NCBI GenBank assembly: GCA_005880605.1 | Contig: VBIS01000160.1 | Span: forward strand, 10,180-74,179 | Reading direction: 5' to 3' | Length of the DNA stretch: 64,000 nt | From: Chloroflexota bacterium | GTDB taxonomy: Bacteria > Chloroflexota > Dormibacteria > CF-121 | In this document: positions 23,746 to 61,002 of the stretch, in pieces | Numbering within the stretch: position 1 is the first letter of the stretch | How the letters are laid out: every line of letters starts with the position of its first letter | The notes under the pieces: generated by a model | Database searches by the model: none | What the model saw: only the letters and a program-made list of their open reading frames with translations | Told to the model about the DNA's origin: nothing | Position numbers and translations under genes: made by a program

Positions 23746-23792
23746 CGCTGGCTAGTTTACGGGGTCGCGGCTAAACACAGGCTAAGAGCCGG

Positions 23793-26400
23793 CTAGCGCT
23801 TCCGGCGGCGTGCCAGCAGGTCGCCGGTTGGATCCTCGGGTGGCTTCTTCGGCGCCCGTGGTTGCGCGGCTCGTGCGGCGCGGATGCCATCGACGCGCTC
23901 CTTGAGGCGGGTGACCGTGGCTTCCGCCGGGACGGCGGGCGTCGGCCGGCGCGCCACGGCCGCTCGCCAGGCGGGCATGTCTTCAAGCCGGAAGATCAGA
24001 CGGCGCAGCGCGACGTCCACCGGGAAGAGCAGGATCGCGAGCACCAGCAGGAGCTCGCCGATCGGCAGCGCGGCTCGGACGTTCGGTACCGTCACCCGGA
24101 ACGCCTGCGACACGTCGCTGAGCAGGACCCCGCCGCCGGCCTGGGCGATGGCCTTGAGGGTGGCGACGTCGGTGCCGAGATCGCGGTATTCCGGCGAGTA
24201 GGGGACGACCAGCCCGCTGGTCGTCGTGTGTCGAACCACGCCGCCGGCTGACTCACTCACGTGCAGCAAGTAGCTGCCTACCTGGTCGGTCGGCAGGTCG
24301 CCCTCGAAACGGCCGGGCCCGGTCGACGACAGGATCAGGCCGGCGGCGGCCAGGTCAGGGGTCAGGGCATTGACCGTCACCGTGGCACCGGAGGTCGGCG
24401 GCGCCGTCACGAGGAGGTGGGTGTGGTCGCCCTGGACGCGGGTCTCGACCTGCAGCGCGGGATCGCCCGGCTGCGGCAGGCTGGCGTGCACGATGTCGCC
24501 AAAGAAGCGATTGGCTGCCGACCACTGGAGCAGGCCGGCGGTCCAGCGGCCCTGGGCGTCACTGGTCCAGGCCATGACCCGGCCGAGGCCGTACTGCCAG
24601 GTTGCCAGCAGGGGATCGCCCTGCGGGCTCTTGAGCACGACGTCGGCGGCGGCGCGAGGGGTGGTCGCGACGTATCCGGTCAGGGCGGGGAAAGCGTCCA
24701 GCGGCACACCGGGAAGGACCTCGGCCAAGGAGGCGAGTTGCGGGGCGATCCGCCCCTCGACGATCCAGGGCTTGAGCGCCTCGCGGGTTTCTTTCAAGAA
24801 AATCTGGGGCACGTCGGACAGGCTGTTGCTCTGATAGAAGCGACCGTGGCCCCAACCCGCCATCGCCTGCATGGTCGCTGCGTCGAAGCTGTTGGCCGCG
24901 ATCGCGACGGTGGAGACCGTGATCCCACGGCCGTGCATGGCGGTGATCTGGGACTGGTAGTCGCGGTCGGGCGCGTCGCCATCACCGAACAGAATCACGT
25001 GCTTGATCGATGCGGTCGTTTTCGTCAGCTGGTCATTGGCGGCACTCAGGTCCGGCGAGTAGCTCGGAGGGTCGCCCAGTCCCATGGCCTCGATCTTTTT
25101 CTTGATGGCGGCCTTGTCGGTCAGTGGTCCGAGCGGCACGACGATGGTGCCCATGTTGCCGTTGGTGACCCCGACCATGTCGCGCGGCGTGAGTTGGTCG
25201 ATCACCGACTCCGCGGCGCCGCGTAAGACCTGGTCGCCCGTACCGCTCTCCGTCGACTCCAGCACGAGCACCACCGCCACCGGCGGCTTCTGCATATCCT
25301 GGGGAAGCTGGATCTGCACCGGGAGCGTCGTCTCGAGCGCGGTGCCCGCGTAGCCGCCCGGGCCATAGCTGTCGGCGCCGCCGATGACGACGAGTCCGGT
25401 GCCGAGGTCCCGCACTGACGCCTGGAGCAGGGCCATGCCGTCGGCGCCCAGGCTCGACGCTGGGATGTTGACCATGACGACCGCCTGGTAGGCGGCGAGG
25501 TCAGCCGCCGATCGCGGTAGCTGGTCGGGCGTGACGACCGAGGTCCCGATGCCGGTCGACCGCAGCGCCGACTCGAGGCTTGCCGCCTCGCCCGTGGTGT
25601 TCTCGACCAGCAGCACGCGGGGAGGGCCGACCACCTGGATCAGCGCCTCGCCCAGGTTGTTCTCCGCGTACGTATCGCGCACCGGGTCGATCACGACACG
25701 GACCGCGTGGAACCCGGGCTGGCTGGGCTTCACCGTTTGCTTGATCGTGGTTTCGCCGGGGGCGAGGTCGAGCGGGGCCGTGCTGATGAGCGTTCGGTCG
25801 AGATACCAACGCGCCGTCGCGTGGGTGCTCGTGTTGCTGACGATCAGCGCCTGCGTGTCGGCCTGCTGGCCCTGCGTCAGGGTTTTCGGGGCGTCCAGTC
25901 GATCGACGTAGACCTCGGCCCCCAGCGGCACCGGCAGCGCCACGGTATCGACGCGGACGCCCTCAGCGCGTAACAGGCGTGCTTCCGCGACCGCGTCGCC
26001 GAGATTTCCGCGGCCGTCACTGATGAGCACGATGTGCCGGCGGCTGTCGTCAGGGAGAATCGAGCCACCCAGTTGCAGGGCCGCTGCCACGTCGGTGTAA
26101 TGCGGATTGGGCTGGCTCTGGAACTCTCCGAACCATCGCGGCCTCGCTGTCGAGCGCGCTCTGCACACTGGCCGACAAGTCCGCGGCGACGAGCAGCGAT
26201 TGCTTGGCCGGCGTGGTCTGGACCTGGAAGCCGGCCAGCGAGGCAGTCAGCAGCAGCACGATCAGCGTGCGCAGGCCAAGCGAGAGGCGCGCGCGTCGCG
26301 GTGGCAACGGCGGAGGGAAGATGCGCCAGATGACGACGATGACCGCCAGCGCCAGCACGCCCGCCCCCAGGAAGAGGGGGCGGGTGATTTCAAAGCCCAC
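23793..26400 (-). CDS. Large VWA-domain protein with an N-terminal TM helix and a GATase1-like/DUF4159-like region. The reading frame is broken near 26100-26170, probably by a frameshift or internal deletion.
   Basis: The ORF 26400-26050 (membrane anchor plus DLSAS motif-like start of VWA) and the ORF 26168-23793 (YTDVAAAL...HIVLISDG end of VWA) are in different frames and overlap. About 45 aa of the VWA core appear to be missing. Confidence 0.5.
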
Positions 26401-28213
26401 GGTGGAAGGCCAGCCATTCGGCCGTCACGATCGCGAGCGCCGCCAACGCGATCCAGGGCCAGATCTCCAGCTGGCCCGGGTGGGTCGCCTGGACGGCGAC
26501 CGCCCGCGTTGGTGGCAGCGTCAGCCGGTCGGGCGGCTTGAGCTGCGAGATCGCATCGGAGAACAGGTTGACGCTGAACCAGGACCGCTGGACCTGGCCG
26601 CCGATCACCTGCTCGACGACGTAGAGGCCGGTCGGATCCGTCTCGGCGAAGCTGGCGATCGCGCCGGTCGCCAGCGCGCCACGGCTGCCGTCCGGCCGGA
26701 TCACGCTCACCGCTGTGGCACCGGGCTCGGGCACGATGGTCACCGGCTCGTCCGGATGGAAGCTGTGGCTCGGCACGCTTGGCGGCAACATCCACTCGCT
26801 GAGGTTCTGGGTCAGGATCGGGAAGGCGATCCGCAATGGCAGGTCGGACTCATGCAGGTCGAAGCCGATCAGCACCTGCCGGAACGGCTCATCGCGAACC
26901 AGTACCAGTGGCGTCTGTAGGCTGCTGATCAGCGGCCGTCCGAAGGTCGAGGCGCGCAGATCCTCGCTTCGTGCCACGTGTACGTCCTGCAGATCGACGT
27001 TCGCCAGCAGCGGGTCGCCGGCGTCGACGGCGCGAACGCGCCCGATGCCGAGCGCCGGCCCGCCAGCCAGCGCTGAGCCCGCCGGCGGATCGACCATCCA
27101 GAACGGCCCGTCAGGCAGCACCGGTGGGACGAAGCGGTCGAAGACCGTCATCGCGTACGCGGCGCTCGCCTTGTACGCCGCCGGCGCGACGACGTCGAGT
27201 TGAAAGTCCGAGCGCAGCCGCAATGCCTGCTCGAGAAAGACATTCCCCGGCGTCACCAGTAGCACCTTGAAGGCGCGCGGCGTGCGAGCCACCGCAGTCG
27301 CCGTGTCGTCGACGGCGAAGATATCGCCGGTGGCGAGGTGTGCTGTCACCGACGTGGCATCCGACGGAACCGGGAACACGAGATCCTGTCCCTGGCCGGC
27401 CGGCAAGGTGAGCGGCCGGACGTCGAGCAGGTGGCCGTCGGCGCGCCATTCCAGGCTGACCGAACGCACCTGCTGGCCGAAATTCTGCAGGTGCAGGTAG
27501 GCTGCGCGGGTCTGCGCACTGGTGCGCACCGTCAGCGATGTCAGCCCGACATTCTCGCCCGACACCCCGACCCGGTGATAGTCGACGGGAAAGGGCAGTC
27601 CGGCGGCGAAGGACGAGCGAAGGGGTTGCACGATGCCGTCGGAGAACAGGTACGCTCGCGCGTCGTCGCCGGACCGGACCAGGCCGGCCGCCAGCGACAA
27701 CGCTGCCGACAGATCGGCGGGGCCGTTGCTGGCGGTGACGCCGTTCACCGCGCGATGCAGCGCGTCGCGGTCGCCGGTCACGGACGCGATGATTCTCGAC
27801 GTCGGACCAGCGGCGATCACGGTCATCCGGTCCGAGGGCCCGAGTTGGTCGATGACGGCGTTGACCTGGCGCTTCGCCTCAGCGAGGCGCGACGGCGTGA
27901 CGTCAGTCGCCTGCATCGAGGCGGAGGCGTCGAGCAGGACGATGCTGTGACGGGCCAGCGAGGCCCCCGCCGGCAAGACCGGCTGCACCGCGGCGGCGAC
28001 CAGGGCGGCGGCCGCCAGCAACTGCAGGAAGAGCAGCCAGCTCGGACGCAGGCGCTGCCATGGCACGTTTGCCTGCCGGTCGCGGATCTGGGTTGGCCAG
28101 AGATGCAGCGCCGGCACCACGCGCGTGGGCCGGCGAATCTTCAAGAAATACAGCGCGATGATGGCCGGGAGCGTCAACGCCAGGACGGCAGCCAGCGGTG
28201 CGAGGACGGTCAT
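26390..28213 (-). CDS. BatA-like VWA-domain membrane protein.
   Basis: TM anchor (LAAVLALTLPAIIALYFLKIRRP) followed by a VWA domain (IVLLDASASM ... YLFSDG). The start is placed at Met43 of the ORF (MTVLAP...). Confidence 0.65.
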   Translation of the reverse strand: MTVLAPLAAVLALTLPAIIALYFLKIRRPTRVVPALHLWPTQIRDRQANVPWQRLRPSWLLFLQLLAAAALVAAAVQPVLPAGASLARHSIVLLDASASMQATDVTPSRLAEAKRQVNAVIDQLGPSDRMTVIAAGPTSRIIASVTGDRDALHRAVNGVTASNGPADLSAALSLAAGLVRSGDDARAYLFSDGIVQPLRSSFAAGLPFPVDYHRVGVSGENVGLTSLTVRTSAQTRAAYLHLQNFGQQVRSVSLEWRADGHLLDVRPLTLPAGQGQDLVFPVPSDATSVTAHLATGDIFAVDDTATAVARTPRAFKVLLVTPGNVFLEQALRLRSDFQLDVVAPAAYKASAAYAMTVFDRFVPPVLPDGPFWMVDPPAGSALAGGPALGIGRVRAVDAGDPLLANVDLQDVHVARSEDLRASTFGRPLISSLQTPLVLVRDEPFRQVLIGFDLHESDLPLRIAFPILTQNLSEWMLPPSVPSHSFHPDEPVTIVPEPGATAVSVIRPDGSRGALATGAIASFAETDPTGLYVVEQVIGGQVQRSWFSVNLFSDAISQLKPPDRLTLPPTRAVAVQATHPGQLEIWPWIALAALAIVTAEWLAFHRGL

Positions 28214-28223
28214 GACACAGCGC

Positions 28224-29096
28224 TCATGCGAGCAGGCCGATCCGCCGCAGCGTGACCTGCACCATCTCGTCGATCGGTTCCGAGGTGGAAAGCCGGGCGA
28301 AACGCAGACCGCGGCGATGGGCGGCGCGCTCGATCTCATCCGTCCGCTGGGCCAGCGCCTTCACATAGCTGCCCTGAGTGAGCGGCGTCGCCGTGAACTC
28401 GCGCTCGACGCCGGTTTCGGCATCCCGCAGTCGGGCGTCGCCGGACCAGTCCGGGGCGAGCTCCTGGGGAGCGAGCAGCTGGAGCACGGCGCCTTCCTGG
28501 TGCGCTCGCTGCAGCGCCGTCAGGGCCGGATCCAGCGCCGACTCGCCGAGCCCGTCGGTGATCAAGACCGTCATGCCCGGTCGCTGGCGGCCAATCGGCC
28601 AGACCAGCTTCTCGTAGTTGGTCACGCCGCCGGCCGGAAAGGATTGCAACCGGGAAAAAAGCGTCGCGGCGGCGCGGCGGCCACGCGAGGGCGCTCCTCC
28701 CGAGGTCTCACCCTCGGCAAACACGGTGAGGCGTACGCGGTCGAGCGCGGCGAGGGCGACGTAGGCGATGGCACCGGCCAGCTGCCGCGCGGTCGCCGCC
28801 TTGTTGGGCTTGCCCCAGTCCATCGAGCCGCTCAGGTCGACGAAGAGACTCAGCGGCAGTTCTTCTTCCGCGACGAAGAGCCGCAGCATGAAGCGATCGA
28901 GGCGCGCATAGGCATTCCAGTCGATCAAGCGGAAATCGTCGCCGGGCGTGTAATTTCGGTAGTCCGCGAACTCGACCGACTGACCGCGACGCTTGGAGCG
29001 GCGCTCGCCACCCATCTGGCCGCTGACGGCGCGCCGAACCTGGAGCGCGAGGGCCTCGAGGCGTCGGAGCAGAGCCGGCTCCAGCAGGGGGGCCAT
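28224..29096 (-). CDS. DUF58-family protein (VWA-like), the usual MoxR partner.
   Basis: VEFADYRNYTPGDDFRLIDWNAYARLDRFMLRLF matches DUF58. It lies directly downstream of moxR. Confidence 0.75.
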   Translation of the reverse strand: MAPLLEPALLRRLEALALQVRRAVSGQMGGERRSKRRGQSVEFADYRNYTPGDDFRLIDWNAYARLDRFMLRLFVAEEELPLSLFVDLSGSMDWGKPNKAATARQLAGAIAYVALAALDRVRLTVFAEGETSGGAPSRGRRAAATLFSRLQSFPAGGVTNYEKLVWPIGRQRPGMTVLITDGLGESALDPALTALQRAHQEGAVLQLLAPQELAPDWSGDARLRDAETGVEREFTATPLTQGSYVKALAQRTDEIERAAHRRGLRFARLSTSEPIDEMVQVTLRRIGLLA

Positions 29097-29101
29097 TGCG
29101 G

Positions 29102-30100
29102 CTATTCCCGGCCGGGTTCCTTGGGGGTCTGCTCCAGGATGTCGCTGATGATCTTGTCGGCCGCGATGCCGTCCGCCTCGGCCTCGAACTGCAGGAAGAT
29201 CCGGTGTCGCAGCGCCGGCCCGGCGACGGCATTGAGATCGTCAAAGGCCACGTTGTAGCGGCCTTCAAGCAGGGCGCGGACTTTCCCGGCGAGGATCAGC
29301 GTCTGCATCCCGCGCGGGCTCGCGCCCCAGCGGACGTAGCGGCGCACCGAGTCGAGCTGGGTGCGGTCGGGATGGGTGGCCGAAATCAGCCGCGCGGCGT
29401 AGCCCAGCACGTGCTCGGCGATCGGAACCTCACGCGCGACGCGCTGCGCTGCCATGACGGCGTTCGCGTCCGCTACCGGCTTGAGCTGTGGCGTCGATTC
29501 GCCCGTCGTGCGTCGCGCGATCTCCAGCAGGTCTTTTTCACTGGGAAAAGGAACCAGCACCTTGAAGAAAAATCGATCGAGTTGCGCCTCAGGCAAGGGG
29601 TAGGTTCCCTCGAGCTCGATCGGGTTCTGGGTGGCGAGCACGAAAAACGGGTTGGGCAGCGGTCGCGTCTGGGTCCCAACGGTCACCGTGTGTTCCTGCA
29701 TGGCCTCGAGTAAGGCGCTTTGCGTTTTGGGTGTGGCGCGGTTGATCTCGTCGGCGAGCACGAGGTTCGCAAAGATGGGGCCCGCCTGGTAATGAAACTC
29801 GCGGCGGCCGGCTTCGTCGCCGATGACATTCGTGCCCACGATGTCGGCGGGCATCAGGTCGGGCGTGAACTGGATGCGCGAAAAGCTCATCGTCAGGGCC
29901 TGGCCAAGCGAACGAACGAGCACGGTCTTGCCCAGCCCGGGGACGCCTTCGAGCAGGACGTGGCCGCCGGCGATCAGCGCGATCACGGTATCGCGGAGGA
30001 GGTCTTTCTGACCGACGATCAGCCGGGCGAGCTCGGCTTCGAGCGATTGCGCAAGCTCGGTCACCTGGGTTGCGTCGACGCGCGGTTCTTCGGCGATCAT
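29102..30100 (-). CDS. MoxR-family AAA+ ATPase.
   Basis: Walker A GVPGLGKT, Walker B LADEINRA, and the C-terminal MoxR lid. Confidence 0.9.
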   Translation of the reverse strand: MIAEEPRVDATQVTELAQSLEAELARLIVGQKDLLRDTVIALIAGGHVLLEGVPGLGKTVLVRSLGQALTMSFSRIQFTPDLMPADIVGTNVIGDEAGRREFHYQAGPIFANLVLADEINRATPKTQSALLEAMQEHTVTVGTQTRPLPNPFFVLATQNPIELEGTYPLPEAQLDRFFFKVLVPFPSEKDLLEIARRTTGESTPQLKPVADANAVMAAQRVAREVPIAEHVLGYAARLISATHPDRTQLDSVRRYVRWGASPRGMQTLILAGKVRALLEGRYNVAFDDLNAVAGPALRHRIFLQFEAEADGIAADKIISDILEQTPKEPGRE

Positions 30101-30121
30101 GATCCTCCCTGGCGCATTACG

Positions 30122-31729
30122 TTATTTCGGACCGGGTCCAGTCTGCTCACCGAGTTGCGAGAAGTACTGGCGGACGAGGTCGCGCTCACTGCCCGGAATG
30201 AGACTCTGGTTGGTGGCATCGAGTGCCGCCTGCTGATAGGCCTGGATCACCTGGCTGTAGGGGCTGAGCGGCACGTCCTGGCCGGGTCCGAGCGGCGTGG
30301 GATCGTTCTGCGACTGACCGGGCACAGGCTGGCCCGGCACGTAGACGCGCTCGGTGCTCTTCGCGCCCGCGCCGCTCCCGGTACCTGACCCGCTCGAACC
30401 CGTCCCCCCGTTGCCACCGTTGCCACTCCCCGATCCGGTGCCGGTGCCGGTGCCGGTTCCGGTGCCGCTGCCATTGCCATTCCCGGTGCCGGTGCCATTC
30501 CCGCTTCCGTTGCCGCTGCCACTCGCACCTGGCGACGCTCCCGTGCCGGCGCCGGGCGACGTCCCGGCCCCCGGGGATGCGCTGGCGTTCGGCTGACCAC
30601 CCTGGCCCTTCGCATCGCGGTCCGCCTGGGTGGCGAGCTCCTGGCGCGCCGCTTCCAGGCCGTTGATCGCCGATGCGACCGCCTGGTCGGTATTCTGCTG
30701 CTGCTGCAGCGAGTCGAGCTGGCTGGCGACGTCGTTGAGCGCCTGCGCGGCGGAGTTGGGATCGCCGTTCTGCAGTGAGGACGAGGCTTTGCTCAGCGAA
30801 TCGCGCATCTGGCTGTTCTGCGCCTGCTGCGCGGCCTTCTCCAAAGCCTTGGCCAGGTCCTGACGGTCTTTGGGCGACATGTTCTGAAGCTGGGCAGCCA
30901 GGTCGCGCACCGACTGCGCGCCCTTGGCGGGACTGGTGCTGATCGCCTGGGCGGCACTGCGGCCGGCGGCGGTGCCGCTGAGCGCATTCGCGAGATTCTG
31001 GGCGCTGCTGCTCAACGCCGGCGTGCCCGGATCCGTCAGCCGCTGCAGTTGCTGCTCCGCCGGCGTGATCGACTCGAGGGCCTTGCGTGGACTGTCGGCC
31101 TGCCGGATCTTCGCCTGCGCGTCCTGAAGAATTTTCTGCACCTGGGGATCGACCGGGGTCGGCTTGGCGCTCTCGGCGACTTTCTTCTGCGCGTCCTGGA
31201 CGGCTTTCGCCGCACGAGCCTGGCTGGTGCGATCCGCCTTCTGCTGGGCCAGCACCTGGTCCATCGGGTTGGGCAGCACCGCGAGTGCCAGGGCGAAAAT
31301 CGCCAGGACCGCGACCAATGAGGCTTCGCCGCGGTTGACCCGTACCGGGAAGGCGGCCGCCAGCCGGGTACGGGTGGCATGCTGCAGCGCATCGCGTCGC
31401 TGCACGTCGTCGAGGGCGCCGGACTCGGTCCGCCGTTCCCACGCCGTCGACAGTCGCTCCTTCAGACCGAGCCGGATGTCCGCGAGCCGCATCAAGATGG
31501 CCGCGCTCGGCCGGCGGAGTAGCCACGCGATCGCCGCGATCGCGAGCGCGACCGGGACACCGACCGCGGCCACCGTCGCGCGCTGCTCAACGGGCGTCAG
31601 CCTCGCAATGAGCAGCACGACGGCCACCCACCCCGCCGCCGCCACCAGGCCGTGCACGGCGTATCGAGCCCCCCGGGCGCGGGCCGCGGCTCGGCGGAGT
31701 TCTCGGATGATCGCGTCGAGCGAGCTCAT
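30122..31729 (-). CDS. Membrane protein with two N-terminal TM helices, a long Gln/Ala-rich coiled-coil region and a Gly/Ser/Thr/Asn low-complexity tract.
   Basis: Hydrophobic segments at the N-terminus. A heptad-like QAQ/AKA region is followed by NGSGNGTGTGNGNGSGTGTGTG. Confidence 0.5.
   Translation of the reverse strand: MSSLDAIIRELRRAAARARGARYAVHGLVAAAGWVAVVLLIARLTPVEQRATVAAVGVPVALAIAAIAWLLRRPSAAILMRLADIRLGLKERLSTAWERRTESGALDDVQRRDALQHATRTRLAAAFPVRVNRGEASLVAVLAIFALALAVLPNPMDQVLAQQKADRTSQARAAKAVQDAQKKVAESAKPTPVDPQVQKILQDAQAKIRQADSPRKALESITPAEQQLQRLTDPGTPALSSSAQNLANALSGTAAGRSAAQAISTSPAKGAQSVRDLAAQLQNMSPKDRQDLAKALEKAAQQAQNSQMRDSLSKASSSLQNGDPNSAAQALNDVASQLDSLQQQQNTDQAVASAINGLEAARQELATQADRDAKGQGGQPNASASPGAGTSPGAGTGASPGASGSGNGSGNGTGTGNGNGSGTGTGTGTGTGSGSGNGGNGGTGSSGSGTGSGAGAKSTERVYVPGQPVPGQSQNDPTPLGPGQDVPLSPYSQVIQAYQQAALDATNQSLIPGSERDLVRQYFSQLGEQTGPGPK
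30365..30530 (-). repeat. Hexanucleotide simple-sequence repeat (GGTGCC/GGTTCC/GCTGCC units) inside the coding region, encoding a GS/GT tract.
   Basis: About 25 near-tandem 6-nt units are visible on the plus strand (ggtgccggtgccggtgccggttccggtgcc...). Confidence 0.7.
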
Positions 31730-32760
31730 GCGACCACTCGAGCGCGCCGTCGCCAGGGCAAATGCCGGATCGGTGGCAGCAGGAGCGCGCTCAGGATCAG
31801 CGCAAGCAGGCAGATCGCGAGCTGCATGGTAATGGTGGCCTGCCAGTACTGCCAGCCGCTAAAGAGCCCGCTGGGGATCGTGGTCCCAATGGGTTGCGGC
31901 GGGTTGAAGGGCTGGCCGACCGCGCCCTTGCCGATCGGCACCGTGGTCACGTAGCAGGACTGGGCGCCATTCGGCCCCGCGCTGCACGCCATCCCTCCGC
32001 CCTGCGCCATGTTGTAGACGCCGTTGCGGATGCCATAGCCGGTCACGGGCGCATTCATGCCGATCACGACCAGCGGCAGGATCGGGCTGAGGTAGGTGAC
32101 GGCCGGCGGCGCCGGGGCCTTGGTGGCATTCGGGTTGATGTCGGTGGGGAAGAGTAGCCCGAATAGCAGGCTGCCCGCCAGCAAGATAAAGGCGGCGCCA
32201 TAGGCGGAGACCGTTGCCGGCAGCGTCCGCTTGAATGCGGTCGAGCAGGCGAGGCCGATGATGCCGAGGGTGAGGGCGGCGACCGCCGTCACCAGGAAGG
32301 CAATCAGCACCTGGTCGAGCTCGATCCCGCCAAACAGGAAGACAAGGCTGAAGATCGGCACCGAGAGGAGCAGCAGCAAGATCACGAACGACATCGAAGC
32401 AAGCAGCTTGCCCCAGAGAATCGAAAATGCGGGCAGCTTGGTGACGAAGAGCAGGTCGATCGTCTGCCGCTCGCGCTCGCTGCTGACGGCCCCGGCCGTG
32501 AGCGCCGGGGTGATGAAGGCCAGCAGCACCATCTGGAAAAGGATCAGCCACAGGAACAGGACCTGGCCGTAGTTGGCGGCCTGCGCGCCGTTGAAGGAGT
32601 TGCGCGCGCTCGATGCCGTCGAGGAAAAGATCGCCCAGCCAACGCCGCCCAGCAGCAGGATATAAATCGTCATCGCCAGCGGCGATCGCCAGGTGCGCAT
32701 CCTGGATCGGTACTCCTTGGCGACGATCGGGTTCCAGAGTGCGATCGCGATGCGGTTCAT
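31726..32760 (-). CDS. ABC-2 family transporter permease.
   Basis: Six predicted TM helices and an ABC-2 permease-like pattern. It overlaps the ATPase gene. Confidence 0.65.
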   Translation of the reverse strand: MNRIAIALWNPIVAKEYRSRMRTWRSPLAMTIYILLLGGVGWAIFSSTASSARNSFNGAQAANYGQVLFLWLILFQMVLLAFITPALTAGAVSSERERQTIDLLFVTKLPAFSILWGKLLASMSFVILLLLLSVPIFSLVFLFGGIELDQVLIAFLVTAVAALTLGIIGLACSTAFKRTLPATVSAYGAAFILLAGSLLFGLLFPTDINPNATKAPAPPAVTYLSPILPLVVIGMNAPVTGYGIRNGVYNMAQGGGMACSAGPNGAQSCYVTTVPIGKGAVGQPFNPPQPIGTTIPSGLFSGWQYWQATITMQLAICLLALILSALLLPPIRHLPWRRRARVVA

Positions 32761-33683
32761 CAGATATCCTCCGACGTCGCTTTCATGAACGCGTCTTCGA
32801 GGCCGCCCTCGAGCTGACTGAAGCCCGAGACCTTGATGCCGGCCGCGGTCAAGGCCTGCAGGATGCCGGCGGCGGCGGCATCGTCGCCATCGTAATGGGC
32901 TTCGATGGCGCCGTTGACCGTTACGACCTCGTGGACCGCGGGCAGGGGCTTGAGCACGGCGGCGGCTTCTTCCTTATGTCCGAGCACCGTGATGCGCAGC
33001 CGCCGGCCGGTGGTCAGCTGTCGGATGACCTCCTGCACTGGCCCGGTCGCGCGCATCCGGCCCTGGTCGATGATGCCGATCATGGTGCAGAGCTCGGTGA
33101 GCTCGGGCAGGATGTGGCTCGAGATGATGATCGTCTTGCCCATGGTTTGAAGTTCTTTCAAAATCTCGCGCATCTCGACGCGGGCTCGTGGATCGAGGCC
33201 CGAGGCCGGTTCGTCCAGGAGCAAGACGGCGGGATCATGGACCAGCGCCCGGGCGAGGCACAGCCGCTGCTTCAAGCCCCGCGAAAGGGTATCGACCGCC
33301 TGGTCCCGACGGTCAGTCAGTCCGACCAGCTCGAGCAGGTCGTCGGCGATCTTCTTGCGGCGGGCTTTGGGCTGCCGGTAGCAGGCGGCGTAGAAATCGA
33401 GATACTCGCCCGCGGTCAGCTGGTCGTAGACGCCGAAGAAATCCGGCATGTAGCCAAGGCGCTCATGCACCAGGTCGGGATGCTCGGTGACGTCGGCGCC
33501 GTCGACCAGCGCCCGGCCGGCTGTGGGCTCGAGGAGCGCCGCCAGAATCCGCAGCGTCGTCGTCTTGCCCGCCCCGTTCGGTCCGACGAATCCGAAGATT
33601 TCGCCTTTGGGGACCTCGAAGGAGACGTGATCGAGCGCGGTGCGACCGCCGTACAGCTTGGTCAGTCCCTCGACGGCGATCAT
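32760..33683 (-). CDS. ABC transporter ATP-binding protein.
   Basis: Walker A GPNGAGKTT, signature LSRGLKQRL, Walker B LLLDEP. Confidence 0.85.
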   Translation of the reverse strand: MIAVEGLTKLYGGRTALDHVSFEVPKGEIFGFVGPNGAGKTTTLRILAALLEPTAGRALVDGADVTEHPDLVHERLGYMPDFFGVYDQLTAGEYLDFYAACYRQPKARRKKIADDLLELVGLTDRRDQAVDTLSRGLKQRLCLARALVHDPAVLLLDEPASGLDPRARVEMREILKELQTMGKTIIISSHILPELTELCTMIGIIDQGRMRATGPVQEVIRQLTTGRRLRITVLGHKEEAAAVLKPLPAVHEVVTVNGAIEAHYDGDDAAAAGILQALTAAGIKVSGFSQLEGGLEDAFMKATSEDI

Positions 33684-34168
33684 TGGACCGTCCCCGACAG
33701 CGAGATGCTGCCCGCCAGCAAGCCGCCGTTCGTGGTGGTCAGGCGCAGCCGGATGAGGCCGGTGGACGGGTCGACCGCGCTATCCGGCAGGGCGGTGGTC
33801 CCGTTGTCCTGGTAGGCGATGTCGCTCCAGGTCGCGTGGGACCAATCCCACACTTGCCCCACCACTGTCGGTCCGGTTTGGGTCGTGTTTCCCGGGGGCC
33901 CGAACTTCGGCCCATAGGGGTTCTGGGCACTGATCGAGACCGCGGTCAGGTGAGCGCCGCCGCTGAGCGACGGGGCAAACTCGTAGGTGACGCTGCCGTT
34001 CTGCATCAGGAGCATGCCGGGCGGCCCCTGACTCTGGGTATCGCCCACGACATCCACGATGCGGCCGCTGACGACGCCGGCCGGCAACGGTCCGGTACCA
34101 ATCTGGTCCACCACCAGCGACAGGACGACCGCACCGAGCGCCGTCGACCGGGGATGGCTCCCGTTCAC
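33680..34168 (-). CDS. Hypothetical membrane-anchored or secreted protein.
   Basis: ORF with an N-terminal hydrophobic segment. No recognisable domain. Confidence 0.35.
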   Translation of the reverse strand: MNGSHPRSTALGAVVLSLVVDQIGTGPLPAGVVSGRIVDVVGDTQSQGPPGMLLMQNGSVTYEFAPSLSGGAHLTAVSISAQNPYGPKFGPPGNTTQTGPTVVGQVWDWSHATWSDIAYQDNGTTALPDSAVDPSTGLIRLRLTTTNGGLLAGSISLSGTVQ

Positions 34169-34187
34169 GCTGAGACCTTGGAGCGAC

Positions 34188-36026
34188 TCATGGGTCCAGG
34201 TCGCGGTCGGCGGCCGTCATCGTCGGGCCCCCAGGGCCGTAGCCGCCCTGGTAGATCCCGGATTGGTTGTAGATCCGCATATAGAGAGGTTGAGCGAGCG
34301 ACGTCCCAGCTTTTGGTGCCAGGCTCAGGCTCGCCGAGGCGCCCGGCTTGAGCGCGCCGATGGTCTGAAAGCTATCGCCCGCGATCAGGACGGCGTCCGT
34401 GAAGGTGCTGCTCGAGCGATTCTCGATCGTACCCTTGAGCTGGCCGTTCACGACGGCCACGTGAGCGGTCAGCTTCGGCGCCGCGGTGACGCCTTCCGTA
34501 GCGAAGCCGCCCAGCGCGAAGGCCGTCATCCCGGAGAGCGTCACCTGGTTGCTGGCCACGTTGACCCGGACGCTGCCCGCGTAGGCGTAGCCGTTGTTGG
34601 TCGTGATCGGACTGATCAGCAGGCGTTCGCCGCCCGGGTTCGCCTGGTAATCGCCCCGACTGGGCGGGATGATGCCGGTGTAGGTTTCCTGGTACGCGTG
34701 ATCCGACCCGGGCTGGACGTGAATGATCGCGATCTGGTTGGTCTGAACCGACCGGCCTTTGGTGAAAATACCCGCTCCGTAGGCGCCCCCCGCCGCGAGC
34801 AAGGCGATCAGGGGGACGGTCACCCAGGCAAGGGCGCGACGCCGCATCGCGCCCAGGACGAGATAGTTCACCGGCCCGACCAGCAGGACGTAGATCAATA
34901 CCAGCGCGCCCGTGAGCTGCAAGGACGGTAAATCGAGGCCGGGCAGGTTGCCCAGGACTTGGGTCAGGGCGCTGCTTTTGGAGGCGATCGACTGCTGAGC
35001 ACCGAAACCCATCGGCGCCGGTCCCATCATCACGTTGGGGCCGTTCTGCGCCGTGCTTCCCTGTCCGAAGAAGGCGCGAGACATGACCTGGCGCAGGATG
35101 GTGCGACTGGCGCTCGCGACGGCGAGCGGTTGCTGGTTCCAATCAAACGTCGACATCGTGACGACACCGGCCCCGAAGGGGCGCTCGAGGATCAGCGGCT
35201 TACCGGAATCGCTTAACCAGGCCAGCCCACTGGTGATCGTCCCCGTGGCGATCTCGACCGCGGCTCCGCCAGCGGCGGTCGTATCGATCACAGCCGTACC
35301 CGTGACCTGCAGGGGAAGGATCGCGGGCGGAAGGCCGGCGAGCGTCTTTCGCCAGGCGGCGCCGGTGCCGACGAGCAGGTCGCCGCCGGCCGCGACATAG
35401 TCCGCGATGGCGGCGCGCTGGCCGGCCGTCAGGCTATCGGTCGCGAAGTCATCGACGACCAGGATGTCGAAGGCACGTAGTGGAATCGACGAATCCGCAA
35501 TGTCATCGGCGTGCAGATGCACCACACGGGCCGCGATGCCGCCCGGATGGACGGCGGCGAAGTCGTCAAGCGCGGCGCTCTGATCCGACAGGACGCCGAT
35601 CAGCGCCGACGTCGTCGCGCCGCTGGCCGAGTCCTGGGAGACGGCGACCCGGCCCTGCTGGGTGATGCGGGCGGTGATGGTGGCGCCGGTGGTGTTCTCC
35701 ACGAGGTAGAGCCGCACGCGCTTGCTCGCGCCGCTGGCCAGGCTGATCGGCTCCTCGTAGATGGTGAAGCCGCTGACCCCTGGTTGGGCGTTCAGCGATT
35801 CCTGGACCTCGAGCGTGCCGTCCACGCCGGCACCGGTATTCCGGGCATCGATCGTCACCGGCATCCAGGAGCCAGCCGTGACCACGTCCTGGTAGCCGAC
35901 GTGGACGGTCAGCGTCAGGGGATTGCTCGCCGCCTGAGCCGGAATGGCGGCGATCGGAAGCCCAAATGCGGTCAGAGCCGTTGCGAGGCCGATCCGCGCG
36001 GGCAGGCGCCGCCCCCAGAGACGCAT
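34188..36026 (-). CDS. Signal-peptide protein with central TM helices, possibly an ABC-exporter auxiliary component (GldG- or DUF4350-like).
   Basis: Signal peptide MRLWGRRLPARIGLATALTAFGLPIAAIPAQA. A GATase1-like ILVVDDFATDSL...VAAGGDLLV segment and TM helices near residue 430. The ORF start at 36194 would overlap the tRNA, so Met57 was chosen as the start. Confidence 0.5.
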   Translation of the reverse strand: MRLWGRRLPARIGLATALTAFGLPIAAIPAQAASNPLTLTVHVGYQDVVTAGSWMPVTIDARNTGAGVDGTLEVQESLNAQPGVSGFTIYEEPISLASGASKRVRLYLVENTTGATITARITQQGRVAVSQDSASGATTSALIGVLSDQSAALDDFAAVHPGGIAARVVHLHADDIADSSIPLRAFDILVVDDFATDSLTAGQRAAIADYVAAGGDLLVGTGAAWRKTLAGLPPAILPLQVTGTAVIDTTAAGGAAVEIATGTITSGLAWLSDSGKPLILERPFGAGVVTMSTFDWNQQPLAVASASRTILRQVMSRAFFGQGSTAQNGPNVMMGPAPMGFGAQQSIASKSSALTQVLGNLPGLDLPSLQLTGALVLIYVLLVGPVNYLVLGAMRRRALAWVTVPLIALLAAGGAYGAGIFTKGRSVQTNQIAIIHVQPGSDHAYQETYTGIIPPSRGDYQANPGGERLLISPITTNNGYAYAGSVRVNVASNQVTLSGMTAFALGGFATEGVTAAPKLTAHVAVVNGQLKGTIENRSSSTFTDAVLIAGDSFQTIGALKPGASASLSLAPKAGTSLAQPLYMRIYNQSGIYQGGYGPGGPTMTAADRDLDP

Positions 36027-36169
36027 CTCGTTCAGTAAGACGCCCGGCGGCCTGAAAAGTTCCGTTCGGGCAGTATGGTCGGCCCCTGCGGGGTCGTCAA
36101 TCGGCATCCGGCCCAGGTAAGCCAGCCGAAATGGACCGAGAGTGGCGAGCCAGCGGGCTAGAAGCGAAC

Positions 36170-36252: not shown

Positions 36253-36288
36253 GGCGAAACCCTGCGAGTATATCGGACGTTCCCGGAT

Positions 36289-36316
36289 GGAACTTATTAG
36301 CAATGTTTGCGTCTAA
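36289..36316 (+). promoter_or_regulatory. Putative ECF-sigma-type autoregulatory promoter (GGAACTT ... CGTCTAA).
   Basis: A GGAAC -35-like element and a CGTC -10-like element, about 16 nt apart, about 20 nt upstream of the ECF sigma factor ATG. Confidence 0.35.
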
Positions 36317-36332
36317 AGGCAGGAATCGCTAG

Positions 36333-36914
36333 ATGGACGATCGCGACCTGGTGGGGCGGGCCCGCCGGGGCGATCCTGAGGCGTTTACCCAACTGATCAT
36401 GCAATACCAGGTACCGGTCTACAACATGGCGCTGCGGATGGTCGGCAGGCCCGACGATGCCGCCGACATCGCCCAGGAGGCCTTTACGCGCGCCTGGGAA
36501 AAGATTCGCACCTTACGCGATGCGCCCTTCAAGTCCTGGCTGTTCCAGATCGCGGCAAACCTGTGTTACGACCATTTCCGGCGAGGCCGGCGATACGGCG
36601 AGATGCCTGACGAAGAAACCAACAAAGTGATCGGGCTCGGCATTGCGACCCCGGACCCGCAGGAGCGTGCCGAGGCGCGCGAGCGCAACCGGCTGGTGCG
36701 CGAGAGCATCGAGGCGTTGGACCCAGACATGCGCCTGGCGATCGTGCTGCGCGACGTCAACGGCATGGCCTACGACGAGATCGCCGGTGTGCTGCGCGTG
36801 CCACTGGGGACTGTGAAGTCCCGGATCGCACGGGCGCGGGCGCAGGTCCAGGAGCACCTGCAGCAGTATCCGGATTTCTTTCCGTCGACCAGGGAGGACG
36901 CTCGTGCCGAGTGA
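36333..36914 (+). CDS. ECF (group IV) sigma-70 factor.
   Basis: Region 2 (FTQLIMQYQVPVYNMALRMVG...DIAQEAF) and region 4 (LAIVLRDVNGMAYDEIAGVLRVPLGTVKSRIARAR). Confidence 0.85.
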   Translation: MDDRDLVGRARRGDPEAFTQLIMQYQVPVYNMALRMVGRPDDAADIAQEAFTRAWEKIRTLRDAPFKSWLFQIAANLCYDHFRRGRRYGEMPDEETNKVIGLGIATPDPQERAEARERNRLVRESIEALDPDMRLAIVLRDVNGMAYDEIAGVLRVPLGTVKSRIARARAQVQEHLQQYPDFFPSTREDARAE

Positions 36915-37746
36915 GCCGCGCATCCCCATGGAGCCGACGCTGGAAGAGCTATCGGCGTATCTCGATCACGAGCTGGATGACGGCGCCAAGGCGCGCGTCG
37001 CCGAGCATGTCGCGGGGTGCGCGGATTGCAAAATGCGCCTCGATGGACTACGACAGACCGCCTATGCGATCCGGGCGTTGCCGATGGAGACGCCGCCGCG
37101 GACCTTCACCGTCCCGGCAACGAGTCGCAGGTCGGTGCGCTGGGCGCCCGTCGCCGGCTGGCTCGGGGGCGTTGCCGCGGCGATGCTTGTCATCGTCTTC
37201 GGCGTCATGCACCTGAGCTTGCCGCCGCTTGGCATGGGGACTGCAGGCGCGGCGCATCCGGTCAGCGGAGGCCTTGGTCAGGGGGCCGCGCCCTACGCGC
37301 AGGGCGCGCCCTACCGCCAGGTCGCGCCGCTCGAGGGATCAACGCGCTACGCTCCCGACTCAGCTCTGAGTGCCTCCTCCAGCAACTCCAAGACCGTGAT
37401 GGACGCCCAGAGCTCGTCACGCTCGCTCACGATCAGCACGGATGCCGCCTCTTACCATGCCTCCGGCGTCGTCACCATTCATGTGACAACCAAGGGGCTT
37501 TCCACCGAGGAGGCTTCGTCGGTGCGAATCTTGCTGATGAGGGAAACGGGACAAGGCGGCTATCTCGTCAGACTCGCGGCCCCGTCGAACGCACCGGCGT
37601 TTCCCTCCGACTACCAGGCTGCCTACTCGATCCCGCAAATGCAGCTCCCCGCCCCGGTCGCGGGCAACTACACGCTGCAGGTCACGGTTGACACCAGCGA
37701 CCACTCCGGCCTGGTGGCCTGGCTGCCGTTGACGATTACGCCTTAG
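36904..37746 (+). CDS. Anti-sigma factor with an N-terminal zinc-binding anti-sigma domain (HxxxCxxC), one TM helix and an extracytoplasmic domain.
   Basis: AEHVAGCADCKMRL motif and a TM helix (WLGGVAAAMLVIVFGVM). The gene overlaps the sigma gene stop. Confidence 0.7.
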   Translation: MPSEPRIPMEPTLEELSAYLDHELDDGAKARVAEHVAGCADCKMRLDGLRQTAYAIRALPMETPPRTFTVPATSRRSVRWAPVAGWLGGVAAAMLVIVFGVMHLSLPPLGMGTAGAAHPVSGGLGQGAAPYAQGAPYRQVAPLEGSTRYAPDSALSASSSNSKTVMDAQSSSRSLTISTDAASYHASGVVTIHVTTKGLSTEEASSVRILLMRETGQGGYLVRLAAPSNAPAFPSDYQAAYSIPQMQLPAPVAGNYTLQVTVDTSDHSGLVAWLPLTITP

Positions 37747-60992: not shown

Positions 60993-61002
60993 AGAGATAG
61001 AG

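What the first reader, a model, noticed from the sequence alone, without database searches (positions are those of the whole stretch)
23793..36026. A 12-kb MoxR/DUF58/VWA (Bat-like) cluster fused to an ABC-2 exporter, anchored at tRNA-Leu(CAA)
- Nine co-directional, mostly overlapping or abutting genes lie immediately downstream of tRNA-Leu(CAA).
- In order: a signal-peptide protein (GldG/DUF4350-like), a small membrane protein, an ABC ATPase, an ABC-2 permease, a TM plus coiled-coil plus GS/GT-tract protein, a MoxR ATPase, DUF58, a BatA-like VWA protein, and a VWA/GATase-like protein. yggT follows.
- MoxR-DUF58-VWA modules are chaperone-like systems of poorly understood function.
- Coupling to an ABC exporter and a long coiled-coil/low-complexity membrane protein in one operon is not a described arrangement, to my knowledge.
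- No integrase is present, but the tRNA anchoring is worth noting.
Basis: inference. Interest (0 to 1): 0.55.

Follow-up and report, generated by a model that had tools for sequence, protein, structure and literature searches.

The report
ABC exporter joined to MoxR/VWA operon
A soil Dormibacterota bacterium has an eight-gene operon that joins an ABC-2 exporter to a MoxR/DUF58/VWA chaperone module through an unnamed helical membrane protein. The same block recurs in three bacterial phyla, so the coupling is real, but its cargo and function are unknown.

Summary
The cluster is real, and the coupling of its two halves is real. The gene list needs correcting.

- **Gene count.** There are eight genes, not nine. 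The "small membrane protein" is the C-terminal end of gene 1. Both look split because the window lacks 89 bp and 101 bp that every relative has.
- **Conservation.** The gene order is G1 (GldG-like), ABC ATPase, ABC-2 permease, G5, MoxR, DUF58, BatA/VWA, VWA-GATase1-like. It is identical in 36 of 36 Dormibacterota loci long enough to hold it, including loci with unrelated flanks. It also recurs in Acidimicrobiales, Syntrophomonadaceae and other low- and high-GC lineages.
- **G5.** G5 is a widespread family with no Pfam model. Its predicted fold is confident and all-helical, and it has no match among solved structures. It acts as the hinge: in other lineages it pairs with only one module.
- **Regulation.** In this subclade the operon and the divergent ECF sigma gene carry the same GGAACTT-N-GCGTC promoter motif.
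- **tRNA.** The tRNA is conserved synteny, not an island anchor.
- **Function.** The most likely role is an ECF-controlled envelope export or assembly complex. This is inferred, not shown.
- **Verdict.** It is a new variant of Bat-like MoxR systems.

The parts
36072..36100 (-). Sigma-70-like promoter candidate, TTGACG-N17-CATACT, between the tRNA and gene 1
   Evidence: Consensus scan. Both hexamers are conserved in 7 of 8 aligned relatives while the spacer varies. No transcript data.
36039..36063 (-). ECF-type promoter motif GGAACTTTT-N11-GCGTC, ending 12 nt upstream of the gene 1 ATG
   Evidence: the extended motif occurs only twice in the 64 kb window; it is present upstream of gene 1 in all 26 non-duplicate Dormibacterota loci that have the neighbouring ECF sigma gene, and in none of the 22 loci that lack it.
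34188..36026 (-). Gene 1 (G1), N-terminal 612 codons. It contains a signal anchor, a beta-sandwich, a GATase1/GH42-middle-like alpha/beta domain and two TM helices. The frame is broken at 34201/34200 by a missing 89 bp.
   Evidence: Orthologs are single ORFs of 793-840 aa. AlphaFold2 model of the 96%-identical ortholog. Foldseek hits to GH42 enzymes. Weak to confident DUF7408 and DUF4350 hits in orthologs. Junction mapped.
33680..34168 (-).
   Evidence: It aligns to the C-terminus of the 812-aa orthologs. It has no hydrophobic segment and is modelled as beta-rich.
32760..33683 (-). ABC ATPase of the DrrA/GldA-like ABC-2 class
   Evidence: ABC_tran 110.9 bits and DrrA1-3_C. DrrA and GldA models score below their cut-offs. 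Walker A, signature and Walker B motifs are present.
31726..32760 (-). ABC-2 permease with 6 TM helices and a 105-aa outside loop
   Evidence: ABC2_membrane_3 and ABC2_membrane_2. TM map.
30122..31729 (-). G5, the hinge protein. It has a TM hairpin, a conserved basic cytoplasmic loop (AD.RLGL.ERLSTAWE), a third TM (LPNP), an outside helical bundle, a disordered G/S/N/T tract and a conserved C-terminal helix pair (VR.YF..L).
   Evidence: No Pfam or NCBIfam hit. The family has 2468 representatives. Alignment A3. AlphaFold2 mean pLDDT 82.8. No PDB match by fold or by sequence. Its start overlaps the permease stop by 4 bp.
29102..30100 (-). MoxR AAA+ ATPase of the AAA_3 (MRP) type; cytoplasmic
   Evidence: AAA_3 213 bits and AAA_lid_2. 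Walker A GVPGLGKT. No TM segment.
28224..29096 (-). DUF58 protein with a DLSGS MIDAS-like motif; cytoplasmic
   Evidence: DUF58 100 bits. Motif. No TM segment.
26390..28213 (-). BatA-type membrane VWA protein: BatA_N double TM, VWA with a DASAS MIDAS motif, about 510 aa outside, and a C-terminal TM
   Evidence: BatA 40 bits and VWA_2 62 bits. Topology counts. The VWA domain of the BatA-type protein BB0173 was shown experimentally to face the periplasm (PMC5700661).
23793..26400 (-). Last gene (G9): double TM, VWA (DLSAS), VWA, GATase1_like, a C-terminal TM and a 70-aa basic tail. In the window it is split into two frames (26050-26400 and 23793-26168) by a missing 101 bp at 26134/26133.
   Evidence: Intact orthologs of 901-936 aa. 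Pfam on the intact ortholog. Junction. Start GTG 26400 overlaps the BatA stop.
36289..36313 (+). Matching ECF-type motif GGAACTTATT-N10-GCGTC, ending 19 nt upstream of the divergent ECF sigma gene
   Evidence: Conserved upstream of the sigma gene in all loci that carry that gene.
36333..37746 (+). ECF sigma factor (36333-36914) and zf-HC2 membrane anti-sigma factor (36904-37746). They are the probable regulators of the operon in this subclade.
   Evidence: Sigma70_r2, Sigma70_r4_2 and Sigma70_ECF for the first gene, and zf-HC2 for the second. This synteny is kept in about half of the Dormibacterota loci.

Best explanation
**What it is.** This is one eight-gene operon that encodes a cytoplasmic-membrane complex lying mostly outside the cell. 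It joins two modules.
- An ABC-2 exporter (ATPase plus permease) with a GldG-like accessory protein, G1.
- A Bat-like module made of a cytoplasmic MoxR AAA+ ATPase, a cytoplasmic DUF58 protein and two membrane-anchored VWA proteins with outward-facing MIDAS domains.

**How the modules are joined.** G5 is the hinge between them.
- Its start codon overlaps the permease stop codon.
- Its conserved basic cytoplasmic loop is the likeliest docking site for MoxR and DUF58.
- Its helical stalk, flexible Gly-rich tract and conserved C-terminal domain project outward, next to the VWA and GATase1-like domains.

**Regulation.** In this lineage the operon is probably transcribed from an ECF-sigma-dependent promoter controlled by the divergent ECF sigma/anti-sigma pair. 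That pairing suggests a response to the state of the envelope.

**Most likely function.** ATP-driven export or surface assembly and maintenance of an unidentified envelope component. MoxR and DUF58 would assemble or remodel the VWA scaffold.

**Shown versus inferred.**
- Shown here: gene content, cross-phylum colinearity, predicted topology and the shared promoter motif.
- Inferred: physical contacts, cargo and physiological role.
For: **Colinearity**
- Permease-G5-MoxR order holds in 55 of 55 Dormibacterota loci, and the complete order in 36 of 36.
- The block is intact where flanks differ, for example L002, L035 and L039.
- Outside the phylum, 10 of 10 loci with room carry the complete order.
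- Named examples are Acidimicrobiales L077, Syntrophomonadaceae L125, low-GC L075 and L111, and L123.

**Coupling signals**
- Gene spacing is -11 to +21 bp, and the permease/G5 overlap is 4 bp in several phyla.
- No terminator lies between the modules.

**Domains**
- Walker and MIDAS motifs are intact.

**Topology**
- Positive-inside counts place about 2,400 residues outside the membrane. MoxR and DUF58 have no TM segment.
- The VWA domain of a BatA-type protein faces the periplasm in Borrelia (PMC5700661).

**G1**
- The model shows an Ig-like domain plus an alpha/beta domain that match GH42 middle-domain folds.
- Orthologs hit DUF7408 and DUF4350.
- This is the fold class reported for GldG and DUF4350 (PMC5898192).

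**G5**
- The model is confident, and the family architecture is conserved across the alignment.

**Regulation**
- The identical extended motif occurs only at the two divergent promoters in the window.
- It is present in 26 of 26 loci with the ECF sigma neighbour and in 0 of 22 without it.
- The sigma and anti-sigma domains are confirmed.

**Related operons**
- MRP-type MoxR operons affect envelope integrity in Rhizobium (cited in PMC3893208).
Against: - There are no transcript, interaction or phenotype data. Every genome involved is a MAG or a metagenome contig.
- The modules are separable.
  - G5 relatives occur with MoxR and DUF58 but no ABC genes (L070, L117, L119, L122).
  - They occur with the ABC genes but no MoxR (L112).
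  - They also occur alone (L072 and the P0392 contig).
- G1 itself has no family hit. Its model is poor overall, with mean pLDDT 56.
- A profile-profile test of G1 against G9 was not significant.
- No cargo, enzyme or surface substrate is encoded in the block.
- The correlation between the motif and the ECF sigma neighbour coincides with a phylogenetic split, so it may count only a few independent events.
- In this window two of the eight genes are frame-broken.
Confidence: 0.6

Rival explanations
1. Two independent systems happen to be neighbours: an ABC-2 efflux or immunity pump with its accessory protein, and a separate Bat-like MoxR operon.
For: - Each module exists without the other next to a G5 relative. 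L112 has the ABC genes only. L070, L117 and L122 have the MoxR genes only.
- The ABC ATPase resembles DrrA-type drug exporters, scoring 246 bits, which is below the cut-off.
Against: - Colinearity is 36/36 and 10/10 across lineages in which G5 identity falls to about 25%.
- The block is kept when the flanks change.
- The stop and start codons overlap at the module boundary.
- No terminator or promoter-like site lies between the modules.
Confidence: 0.07
2. It is a GldAFG-type surface-motility or adhesion apparatus of monoderm bacteria. The exporter would power or supply moving surface adhesins, here the VWA proteins.
For: - The ATPase hits GldA at 222.8 bits and the permease hits GldF weakly.
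- G1 has the GldG/DUF4350 fold class (PMC5898192).
- VWA/MIDAS domains are classic adhesion modules (PMC3893208).
Against: - The GldA, GldF and GldG equivalog thresholds are all missed (402.6, 288.5, no hit).
- No other gld or spr family turned up in the cluster.
- The VWA proteins are anchored at both ends in the cytoplasmic membrane, which does not suit a mobile adhesin.
Confidence: 0.1
3. It is a maturation system for an extracytoplasmic metallo- or cofactor enzyme. The ABC-2 pump would act like NosFY and export a cofactor or ion. MoxR-VWA would act like a chelatase or like methanol-dehydrogenase MoxR to insert it.
For: - MoxR family members activate methanol dehydrogenase, NorQ targets and CO dehydrogenase (PMC3893208).
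- The ATPase shows sub-threshold similarity to the ABC subunit of the PQQ-dehydrogenase system and to CcmA.
- MIDAS motifs are intact.
Against: - No candidate client enzyme is encoded in or next to the block in any lineage.
- The neighbouring genes vary freely.
Confidence: 0.1
4. It is an anti-phage or conflict system of the MoxR-vWA type.
For: The MoxR protein also matches PF20030 bpMoxR at 37 bits.
Against: - AAA_3 scores far higher, at 213 bits.
- No beta-propeller or effector domain is present.
- PADLOC gives only generic ATPase hits.
- The block sits in conserved core synteny between dnaE and polA, not in a variable island.
Confidence: 0.03
5. In this particular genome the operon is a decaying pseudogene cluster. 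The 89-bp and 101-bp losses would be real deletions that inactivate gene 1 and the last gene.
For: - The losses are clean, are absent from all six closest relatives compared, and shift the frame.
- There are no N runs in the window.
Against: - Two further losses of similar size (115 bp and about 90 bp) hit the essential dnaE gene within the same 12.4 kb. That points to an assembly artefact.
- Apart from these points every ORF is open and 84-97% identical to relatives.
Confidence: 0.25

Closest known systems
Bacteroides fragilis BatI (aerotolerance) operon and its relatives in Borrelia (bb0170-0176), Leptospira and Rhizobium leguminosarum (RL3499-RL3502, cmdA-D)
   Same: - MRP-type MoxR (AAA_3), then DUF58, then a BatA_N plus VWA membrane protein, then a second VWA protein.
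- The VWA domains face outward from the cytoplasmic membrane (PMC5700661).
- Mutants of the Rhizobium operon have envelope defects (PMC3893208).
   Different: - No TPR (BatC), BatD or SH3 (BatE) proteins are present.
- It has instead an ABC-2 exporter, a GldG-like protein and G5 upstream in the same operon.
- The last protein carries two VWA domains and a GATase1_like domain.
- It is found in monoderm-type phyla of the kingdom Bacillati.
GldA/GldF/GldG ABC transporter of Flavobacterium gliding motility
   Same: An ABC ATPase, an ABC-2 permease and a large accessory protein with a GATase1/flavodoxin-like outside domain.
   Different: - All three equivalog models are missed.
- G1 has two central TM helices and a second large outside domain.
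- No other gliding genes are present.
- GldAFG has not been reported linked to MoxR. This last point is from my own knowledge; my literature searches found no such link.
Archaeal arCOG01314 (DUF4350, GldG-like) plus MoxR plus vWA predicted secretion or membrane-remodelling system (Makarova, Galperin and Koonin 2015, PMC5898192)
   Same: A GldG-like membrane-anchored protein with an outside flavodoxin-like domain is encoded with a COG0714 MoxR ATPase and a vWA protein. That system is also predicted to be a secretion or remodelling complex.
   Different: - The archaeal system has no ABC transporter genes, no BatA-type proteins and no G5.
- It carries Ig-like S-layer-type proteins instead.
- G1 orthologs hit DUF4350 only weakly, at E 0.015-0.03.
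DUF4175 / TIGR02302 low-complexity membrane proteins
   Same: - UniRef names one G5-family member a 'DUF4175 domain-containing protein'.
- From memory only, DUF4175 proteins share the build of N-terminal TM segments plus a long low-complexity region, and they sit near MoxR/DUF58 genes.
   Different: - hmmscan of 34 G5-family members against Pfam-A at E <= 10 did not list DUF4175 among the 25 families that most members match, the only ones shown.
- NCBIfam gave no hit for the window's G5 at E <= 0.01.

Membership tests
Bat-like MoxR(MRP)-DUF58-BatA/VWA operon | AAA_3-type MoxR ATPase directly followed by a DUF58 protein | tested here: met
   AAA_3 213 bits and DUF58 100 bits. The genes are 5 bp apart.
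Bat-like MoxR(MRP)-DUF58-BatA/VWA operon | Membrane protein with the BatA N-terminal double-TM domain plus a VWA domain with a MIDAS motif | tested here: met
   PF07584 40 bits, VWA_2 62 bits and a DASAS motif.
Bat-like MoxR(MRP)-DUF58-BatA/VWA operon | TPR (BatC), BatD and SH3 (BatE) partners | tested here: not met
   No TPR, BatD or SH3 family was found in any of the eight proteins or their intact orthologs.
Bat-like MoxR(MRP)-DUF58-BatA/VWA operon | Aerotolerance, stress or envelope phenotype | not testable with these tools
   The organism is uncultured.
ABC-2 type exporter | ABC_tran ATPase with intact Walker A, signature and Walker B motifs, next to an ABC2_membrane permease | tested here: met
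   The two genes overlap by 1 bp.
GldAFG gliding-motility transporter | Proteins reach the GldA, GldF and GldG equivalog scores | tested here: not met
   GldA 222.8 against a cut-off of 402.6. GldF 22.5 against 288.5. No GldG hit.
GldAFG gliding-motility transporter | Accessory protein with a GldG-type (GATase1/flavodoxin-like) outside domain | tested here: inconclusive
   - Foldseek gives local hits to GH42 enzymes at E about 5e-5.
- The model domain has pLDDT 70-82.
- Orthologs hit DUF7408 and DUF4350 weakly to confidently.
arCOG01314/DUF4350-MoxR-vWA system (PMC5898192) | [quoted passage not shown] | tested here: not met
   - G1 has a signal anchor, two central TM helices and a second outside domain.
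- DUF4350 hits are only at E 0.015-0.03, and only in orthologs.
arCOG01314/DUF4350-MoxR-vWA system (PMC5898192) | COG0714 MoxR ATPase plus a vWA protein in the same operon | tested here: met
DUF4175 (Pfam) | Match to the family model | tested here: not met
   Not among the 25 most-matched families shown for 26 and for 34 family members. A UniRef name for P0259 says otherwise.
MoxR-vWA-beta-propeller ternary conflict systems | bpMoxR ATPase with vWA and beta-propeller partners and effector domains | tested here: not met
   - bpMoxR scores 37 bits, far below AAA_3.
- No beta-propeller or effector domain is present.
- PADLOC gives nothing specific.
ECF sigma regulon member | Adjacent ECF sigma/anti-sigma pair, with the same -35/-10-like motif upstream of both the sigma gene and the target operon | tested here: met
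   The motif is present in 26/26 loci with the sigma neighbour and 0/22 without it.
ECF sigma regulon member | Sigma-dependent transcription start | not testable with these tools
   This needs 5' end mapping or in vitro transcription.
tRNA-anchored genomic island | Integrase, a direct repeat of the tRNA 3' end, atypical composition and variable presence at the tRNA | tested here: not met
   - No integrase lies among the ORFs beside the tRNA; the neighbours are gene 1 on one side and the ECF sigma/anti-sigma pair on the other.
- GC is 0.683 for the cluster against 0.662 for the window.
- The tRNA-block adjacency is conserved in L001, L003 and L004, and the tRNA is absent in L002, where the block lies elsewhere.
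- I did not search for a direct repeat of the tRNA 3' end.

The most novel reading that the evidence does not exclude
The block is a widespread, previously unrecognised envelope machine of Bacillati (Terrabacteria). In it, a new three-TM helical stalk protein (G5) mechanically couples an ABC-2 exporter and its GldG-like partner to a MoxR AAA+/DUF58 motor and outward-facing VWA scaffolds. In some lineages it is under ECF sigma control. It would be the first MoxR/Bat-type system with an identifiable transport partner. That would give a concrete way to test what these long-enigmatic operons do.
Probability: 0.3. Interest if true: 0.75.

Novelty: new variant of a known kind. Interest (0 to 1): 0.58.

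Why it matters
- **Open question.** MoxR-DUF58-VWA (Bat-like) operons are among the most widespread bacterial gene clusters with no known mechanism. Here the module is welded to an ABC-2 exporter and a GldG-like protein, and this holds across at least three phyla. That implies the chaperone-like module serves an export or surface-assembly process.
- **Testable partner.** G5 is a specific candidate for the link between the modules. It is a large family without a model, it has a confident predicted fold, and it has no solved relative.
- **Experimental handle.** The ECF sigma link gives a way to induce the operon and suggests a role in sensing the envelope.
- **Uncultured phylum.** For Dormibacterota, the block is one of the few conserved multi-gene envelope systems that can now be pointed to.

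Tried and rejected
- **Family searches.** Pfam and NCBIfam gave nothing usable for G1, the '162-aa protein' and G5.
- **Solved structures.** Profiles of the G5 and G1 families against PDB sequences gave only linker and low-complexity noise, or nothing. Foldseek of the G5 model against the PDB gave nothing below E 0.4.
- **G1 versus G9.** hhalign of the two families, run to test a shared GATase1-like domain, was not significant at E 0.16. I do not claim this homology.
- **Other libraries.** PADLOC gave only generic ATPase hits, so I rejected a defence-system reading. Rfam found no RNA family in 22500-37500.
- **Metagenome scans.** The diverse alignment A4 had no usable pattern. The A5 group gave no confirmed locus.
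- **Homolog search on P0284.** It returned no named organisms.
- **Literature.** Searches for MoxR/DUF58/ABC/GldG/BatA/DUF7408 combinations found no description of this arrangement. The Rhizobium RL3499-3502 paper is not held.
- **tRNA island idea.** Rejected.

Full report
**Organism and observation**

The window comes from a member of Candidatus Dormibacterota. The closest proteins are 85-96% identical and come from soil metagenomes and from MAGs named Dormibacteraeota, or Chloroflexi in older labels.

All genes of the finding lie on the minus strand. tRNA-Leu(CAA) is at 36170-36252. The first gene starts at ATG 36026 and the last ends at 23793.

Pfam confirms these assignments:
- an ABC ATPase at 32760-33683
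- an ABC-2 permease at 31726-32760
- a MoxR AAA_3 ATPase at 29102-30100
- DUF58 at 28224-29096
- a BatA_N plus VWA protein at 26390-28213
- a VWA plus GATase1_like protein downstream of that
- YggT at 23236-23745

NCBIfam places the ATPase nearest to DrrA and GldA and the permease faintly near GldF. All these scores fall below the family thresholds. Distances between consecutive genes run from -11 to +21 bp. No terminator-like site lies between the modules.

**Corrections to the gene list**

Relatives have eight genes, not nine.
- The first gene is a single ORF of 793-840 aa in relatives, and the last is a single ORF of 901-911 aa.
- DNA alignment shows the window lacks 89 bp at 34201/34200 and 101 bp at 26134/26133 relative to every relative compared. 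Both losses shift the frame.
It has no hydrophobic segment.
- The last gene really begins at GTG 26400, overlapping the BatA stop.

Two more losses of similar size occur nearby.
- A 115-bp loss at 23276/23275 removes the 3' ends of the convergent yggT and dnaE genes.
- A loss of about 90 bp lies inside dnaE near 21862.

Four clean losses of about 100 bp within 12.4 kb, two of them in an essential gene, look more like an assembly artefact than biology. I cannot prove this.

**Is the coupling conserved?**

I scanned one genome per species using a G5 alignment. This gave 66 loci, nearly all Dormibacterota. tblastn maps of all the proteins gave these results:
- The permease lies directly upstream of G5 in 63 of 63 loci with room.
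- MoxR lies directly downstream in 59 of 59.
- Both hold in 55 of 55.
- The complete colinear order holds in 36 of 36.

In roughly half of these loci the flanking genes (polA, the ECF sigma gene, yggT, dnaE) are absent, yet the block is unchanged. The block therefore moves as a unit.

A profile search showed that G5 belongs to a much larger family. It has 2468 representatives at E <= 1e-3 and 331 at E <= 1e-30, mostly full-length proteins of 500-620 aa. The contexts of distant members (24-35% identity) show the same eight-gene order in:
- a high-GC soil lineage (L073, L078-L110)
- low-GC lineages (L075/L076, L111)
- L123/L124
- an Acidimicrobiales MAG (L077)
- a Syntrophomonadaceae MAG (L125)

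All named lineages belong to the kingdom Bacillati. The 4-bp overlap between the permease stop and the G5 start recurs in several of them. Neither is met.

The modules are nevertheless separable. G5 relatives occur in three other arrangements:
- with MoxR and DUF58 (with or without BatA) but no ABC genes, in L070, L117, L119 and L122
- with G1, the ABC ATPase and the permease but no MoxR, in L112
- alone, in L072 and the P0392 contig

G5 is the common element, which makes it the hinge.

**The two proteins without a family**

*G1.* An AlphaFold2 model of the 96%-identical full-length ortholog is poor overall, with mean pLDDT 56. It still resolves these parts:
- a beta-sandwich at residues 37-132
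- an alpha/beta domain at 141-300, with pLDDT 70-82
- two TM helices
- beta-rich C-terminal domains

Foldseek gives local matches of about 220-245 columns at E 5e-5 to 1e-3 to GH42 beta-galactosidases and related glycosidases. The GH42 middle domain is the fold that Makarova et al. matched to DUF4350 and GldG (PMC5898192). Orthologs from other phyla hit DUF7408 (weak in L075 and L125, confident in L123) and DUF4350 (E 0.015-0.03) at that position. The G9 ortholog of L075 hits DUF7408 over its GATase1_like region. The 'GldG/DUF4350-like' label is thus supported at the level of fold class, not family membership.

*G5.* No Pfam or NCBIfam hit was found. UniRef calls one member a DUF4175 protein, which I could not reproduce. 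The AlphaFold2 model is confident, with mean pLDDT 82.8 and values above 90 for residues 1-376. It shows:
- a TM hairpin
- a helical cytoplasmic loop
- a third TM helix
- an outside helical bundle at 156-376
- a disordered G/S/N/T tract at 383-459
- a C-terminal helix pair

Nothing in the PDB matches it by fold or by sequence. The most conserved positions of the whole family lie in two places. One is the basic cytoplasmic loop (AD.RLGL.ERL.TA.E). The other is the C-terminal motif (VPY..V..Y...A......P....VR.YF..L).

**Topology**

Positive-inside counts give this layout:
- G1 has two large domains outside, of 342 and 395 aa.
- G5 has 386 aa outside.
- The BatA protein has 510 aa outside.
- G9 has 755 aa outside, plus a 70-aa basic tail inside.

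MoxR and DUF58 have no TM segment. This agrees with the experimentally determined periplasmic orientation of the VWA domain of the BatA-type protein BB0173 (PMC5700661). The cytoplasmic ATPase can therefore reach the outside scaffold only through short cytoplasmic loops and tails. The conserved G5 loop is the most obvious of these. This last step is inference.

**Regulation**

The 143 bp between the tRNA and gene 1 hold a conserved sigma-70-like TTGACG-N17-CATACT.

Closer to the ATG lies GGAACTTTTCAGGCCGCCGGGCGTC. A near-identical GGAACTTATTAGCAATGTTTGCGTC lies 19 nt upstream of the divergent ECF sigma gene. The extended motif occurs only at these two places in the 64 kb window. The neighbouring genes are an ECF sigma factor and a zf-HC2 membrane anti-sigma factor.

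Across Dormibacterota the pattern is consistent:
- All 26 non-duplicate loci with this sigma/anti-sigma neighbour carry the motif upstream of both gene 1 and the sigma gene.
- None of the 22 loci without the neighbour carries it upstream of gene 1.

The two groups are also separate clades, so the number of independent events is small. Even so, the simplest reading is that the operon belongs to the regulon of the adjacent ECF sigma factor in this subclade. That fits an envelope-related role.

**The tRNA**

tRNA-Leu(CAA) precedes the block in L001, L003 and L004 and is absent in L002, where the block lies in another context. No integrase was found. The GC content of the block (0.683) is close to that of the window (0.662). 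The tRNA is ordinary conserved synteny.

**Interpretation**

The best-supported reading is one operon for a membrane complex with a very large extracytoplasmic part. An ABC-2 exporter with a GldG-like partner is joined through G5 to a Bat-like MoxR/DUF58/VWA module.

By analogy with MRP-type MoxR operons that affect envelope integrity (PMC3893208), and with the predicted archaeal DUF4350-MoxR-vWA secretion or remodelling system, I propose ATP-driven export or surface assembly and maintenance of an unknown envelope component. The cargo and the physical contacts are not shown.

Rival readings and their weights:
- chance neighbours, 0.07
- a Gld-like motility or adhesion device, 0.10
- cofactor or enzyme maturation, 0.10
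- a conflict system, 0.03, after PADLOC gave nothing specific
- separately, a 0.25 chance that the frame breaks are real and this copy is defective

**Novelty**

Searches of the held literature found no description of an ABC-2/GldG-like plus MoxR/DUF58/BatA operon, nor of DUF7407 or DUF7408. All the building blocks are known kinds, and a GldG-like-MoxR-vWA link was already proposed for archaea.

I therefore class this as a new variant of a known kind. It has two features of real interest: the cross-phylum fusion to an exporter, and the G5 family, which has no model.

Noticed in passing
window 34201/34200, 26134/26133, 23276/23275 and about 21862-21868: Relative to all six closest relatives compared, the window lacks clean segments of 89, 101, 115 and about 90 bp, all within 12.4 kb. 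The losses break gene 1 and the last gene of the operon, remove the 3' ends of convergent yggT and dnaE (whose ORFs now overlap by 140 bp), and shorten dnaE. There are no N runs. This is probably an assembly artefact, but that is unproven.
   Followed up: partly
window 36039-36063 (-) and 36289-36313 (+): A pair of near-identical ECF-type promoter motifs (GGAACTT-N-GCGTC) lies upstream of the operon and of the divergent ECF sigma gene. It co-occurs perfectly with the sigma/anti-sigma neighbour across Dormibacterota loci: 26/26 with the neighbour against 0/22 without.
   Followed up: yes
L112:2957-4576, L117:2644-4626, L070:8444-10186, L072:10001-11728: G5-family proteins occur with the ABC module only, with the MoxR module only, or alone. 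G5 is therefore a free-standing family that can recruit either module.
   Followed up: partly
L002:4702-5472 (-) and L112:4661-5767 (-): A baeRF_family10 (release-factor-like) gene sits directly next to the block in two unrelated contexts. It is upstream of gene 1 in a Dormibacterota locus that lacks the ECF sigma neighbour, and downstream of G5 in L112. This may be coincidence.
   Followed up: no
L075:11647-12462 and L076:11647-12573: In the low-GC version of the cluster there is a gap of 0.8-0.9 kb with no called gene between G5 and MoxR. The same junction is 21 bp in the window.
   Followed up: no
L077:18086-20296: The Acidimicrobiales cluster carries an extra ninth gene, a 736-aa BNR/Ycf48-like beta-propeller protein. 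Its start overlaps the end of the G9 homolog.
   Followed up: no
loci L029, L045, L046, L047, L062: Several contigs carry a typical Dormibacterota block (55-83% G5 identity) but belong to MAGs labelled Nitrosotalea, Sulfotelmatobacter, Eisenbacteria, Binatus or Verrucomicrobiia. This is probably binning contamination or mislabelling.
   Followed up: no
proteins P0013, P0016, P0018, P0041 and P0259: Sources name G5 orthologs 'ribosomal protein S20', 'chemotaxis protein histidine kinase CheA', 'FtsK/SpoIIIE-like' or 'DUF4175 domain-containing protein'. The first three are low-complexity artefacts. I could not reproduce the last with Pfam-A.
   Followed up: partly
window 61002-61086 (-): A second tRNA-Leu gene (anticodon CAG) lies elsewhere in the window.
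   Followed up: no
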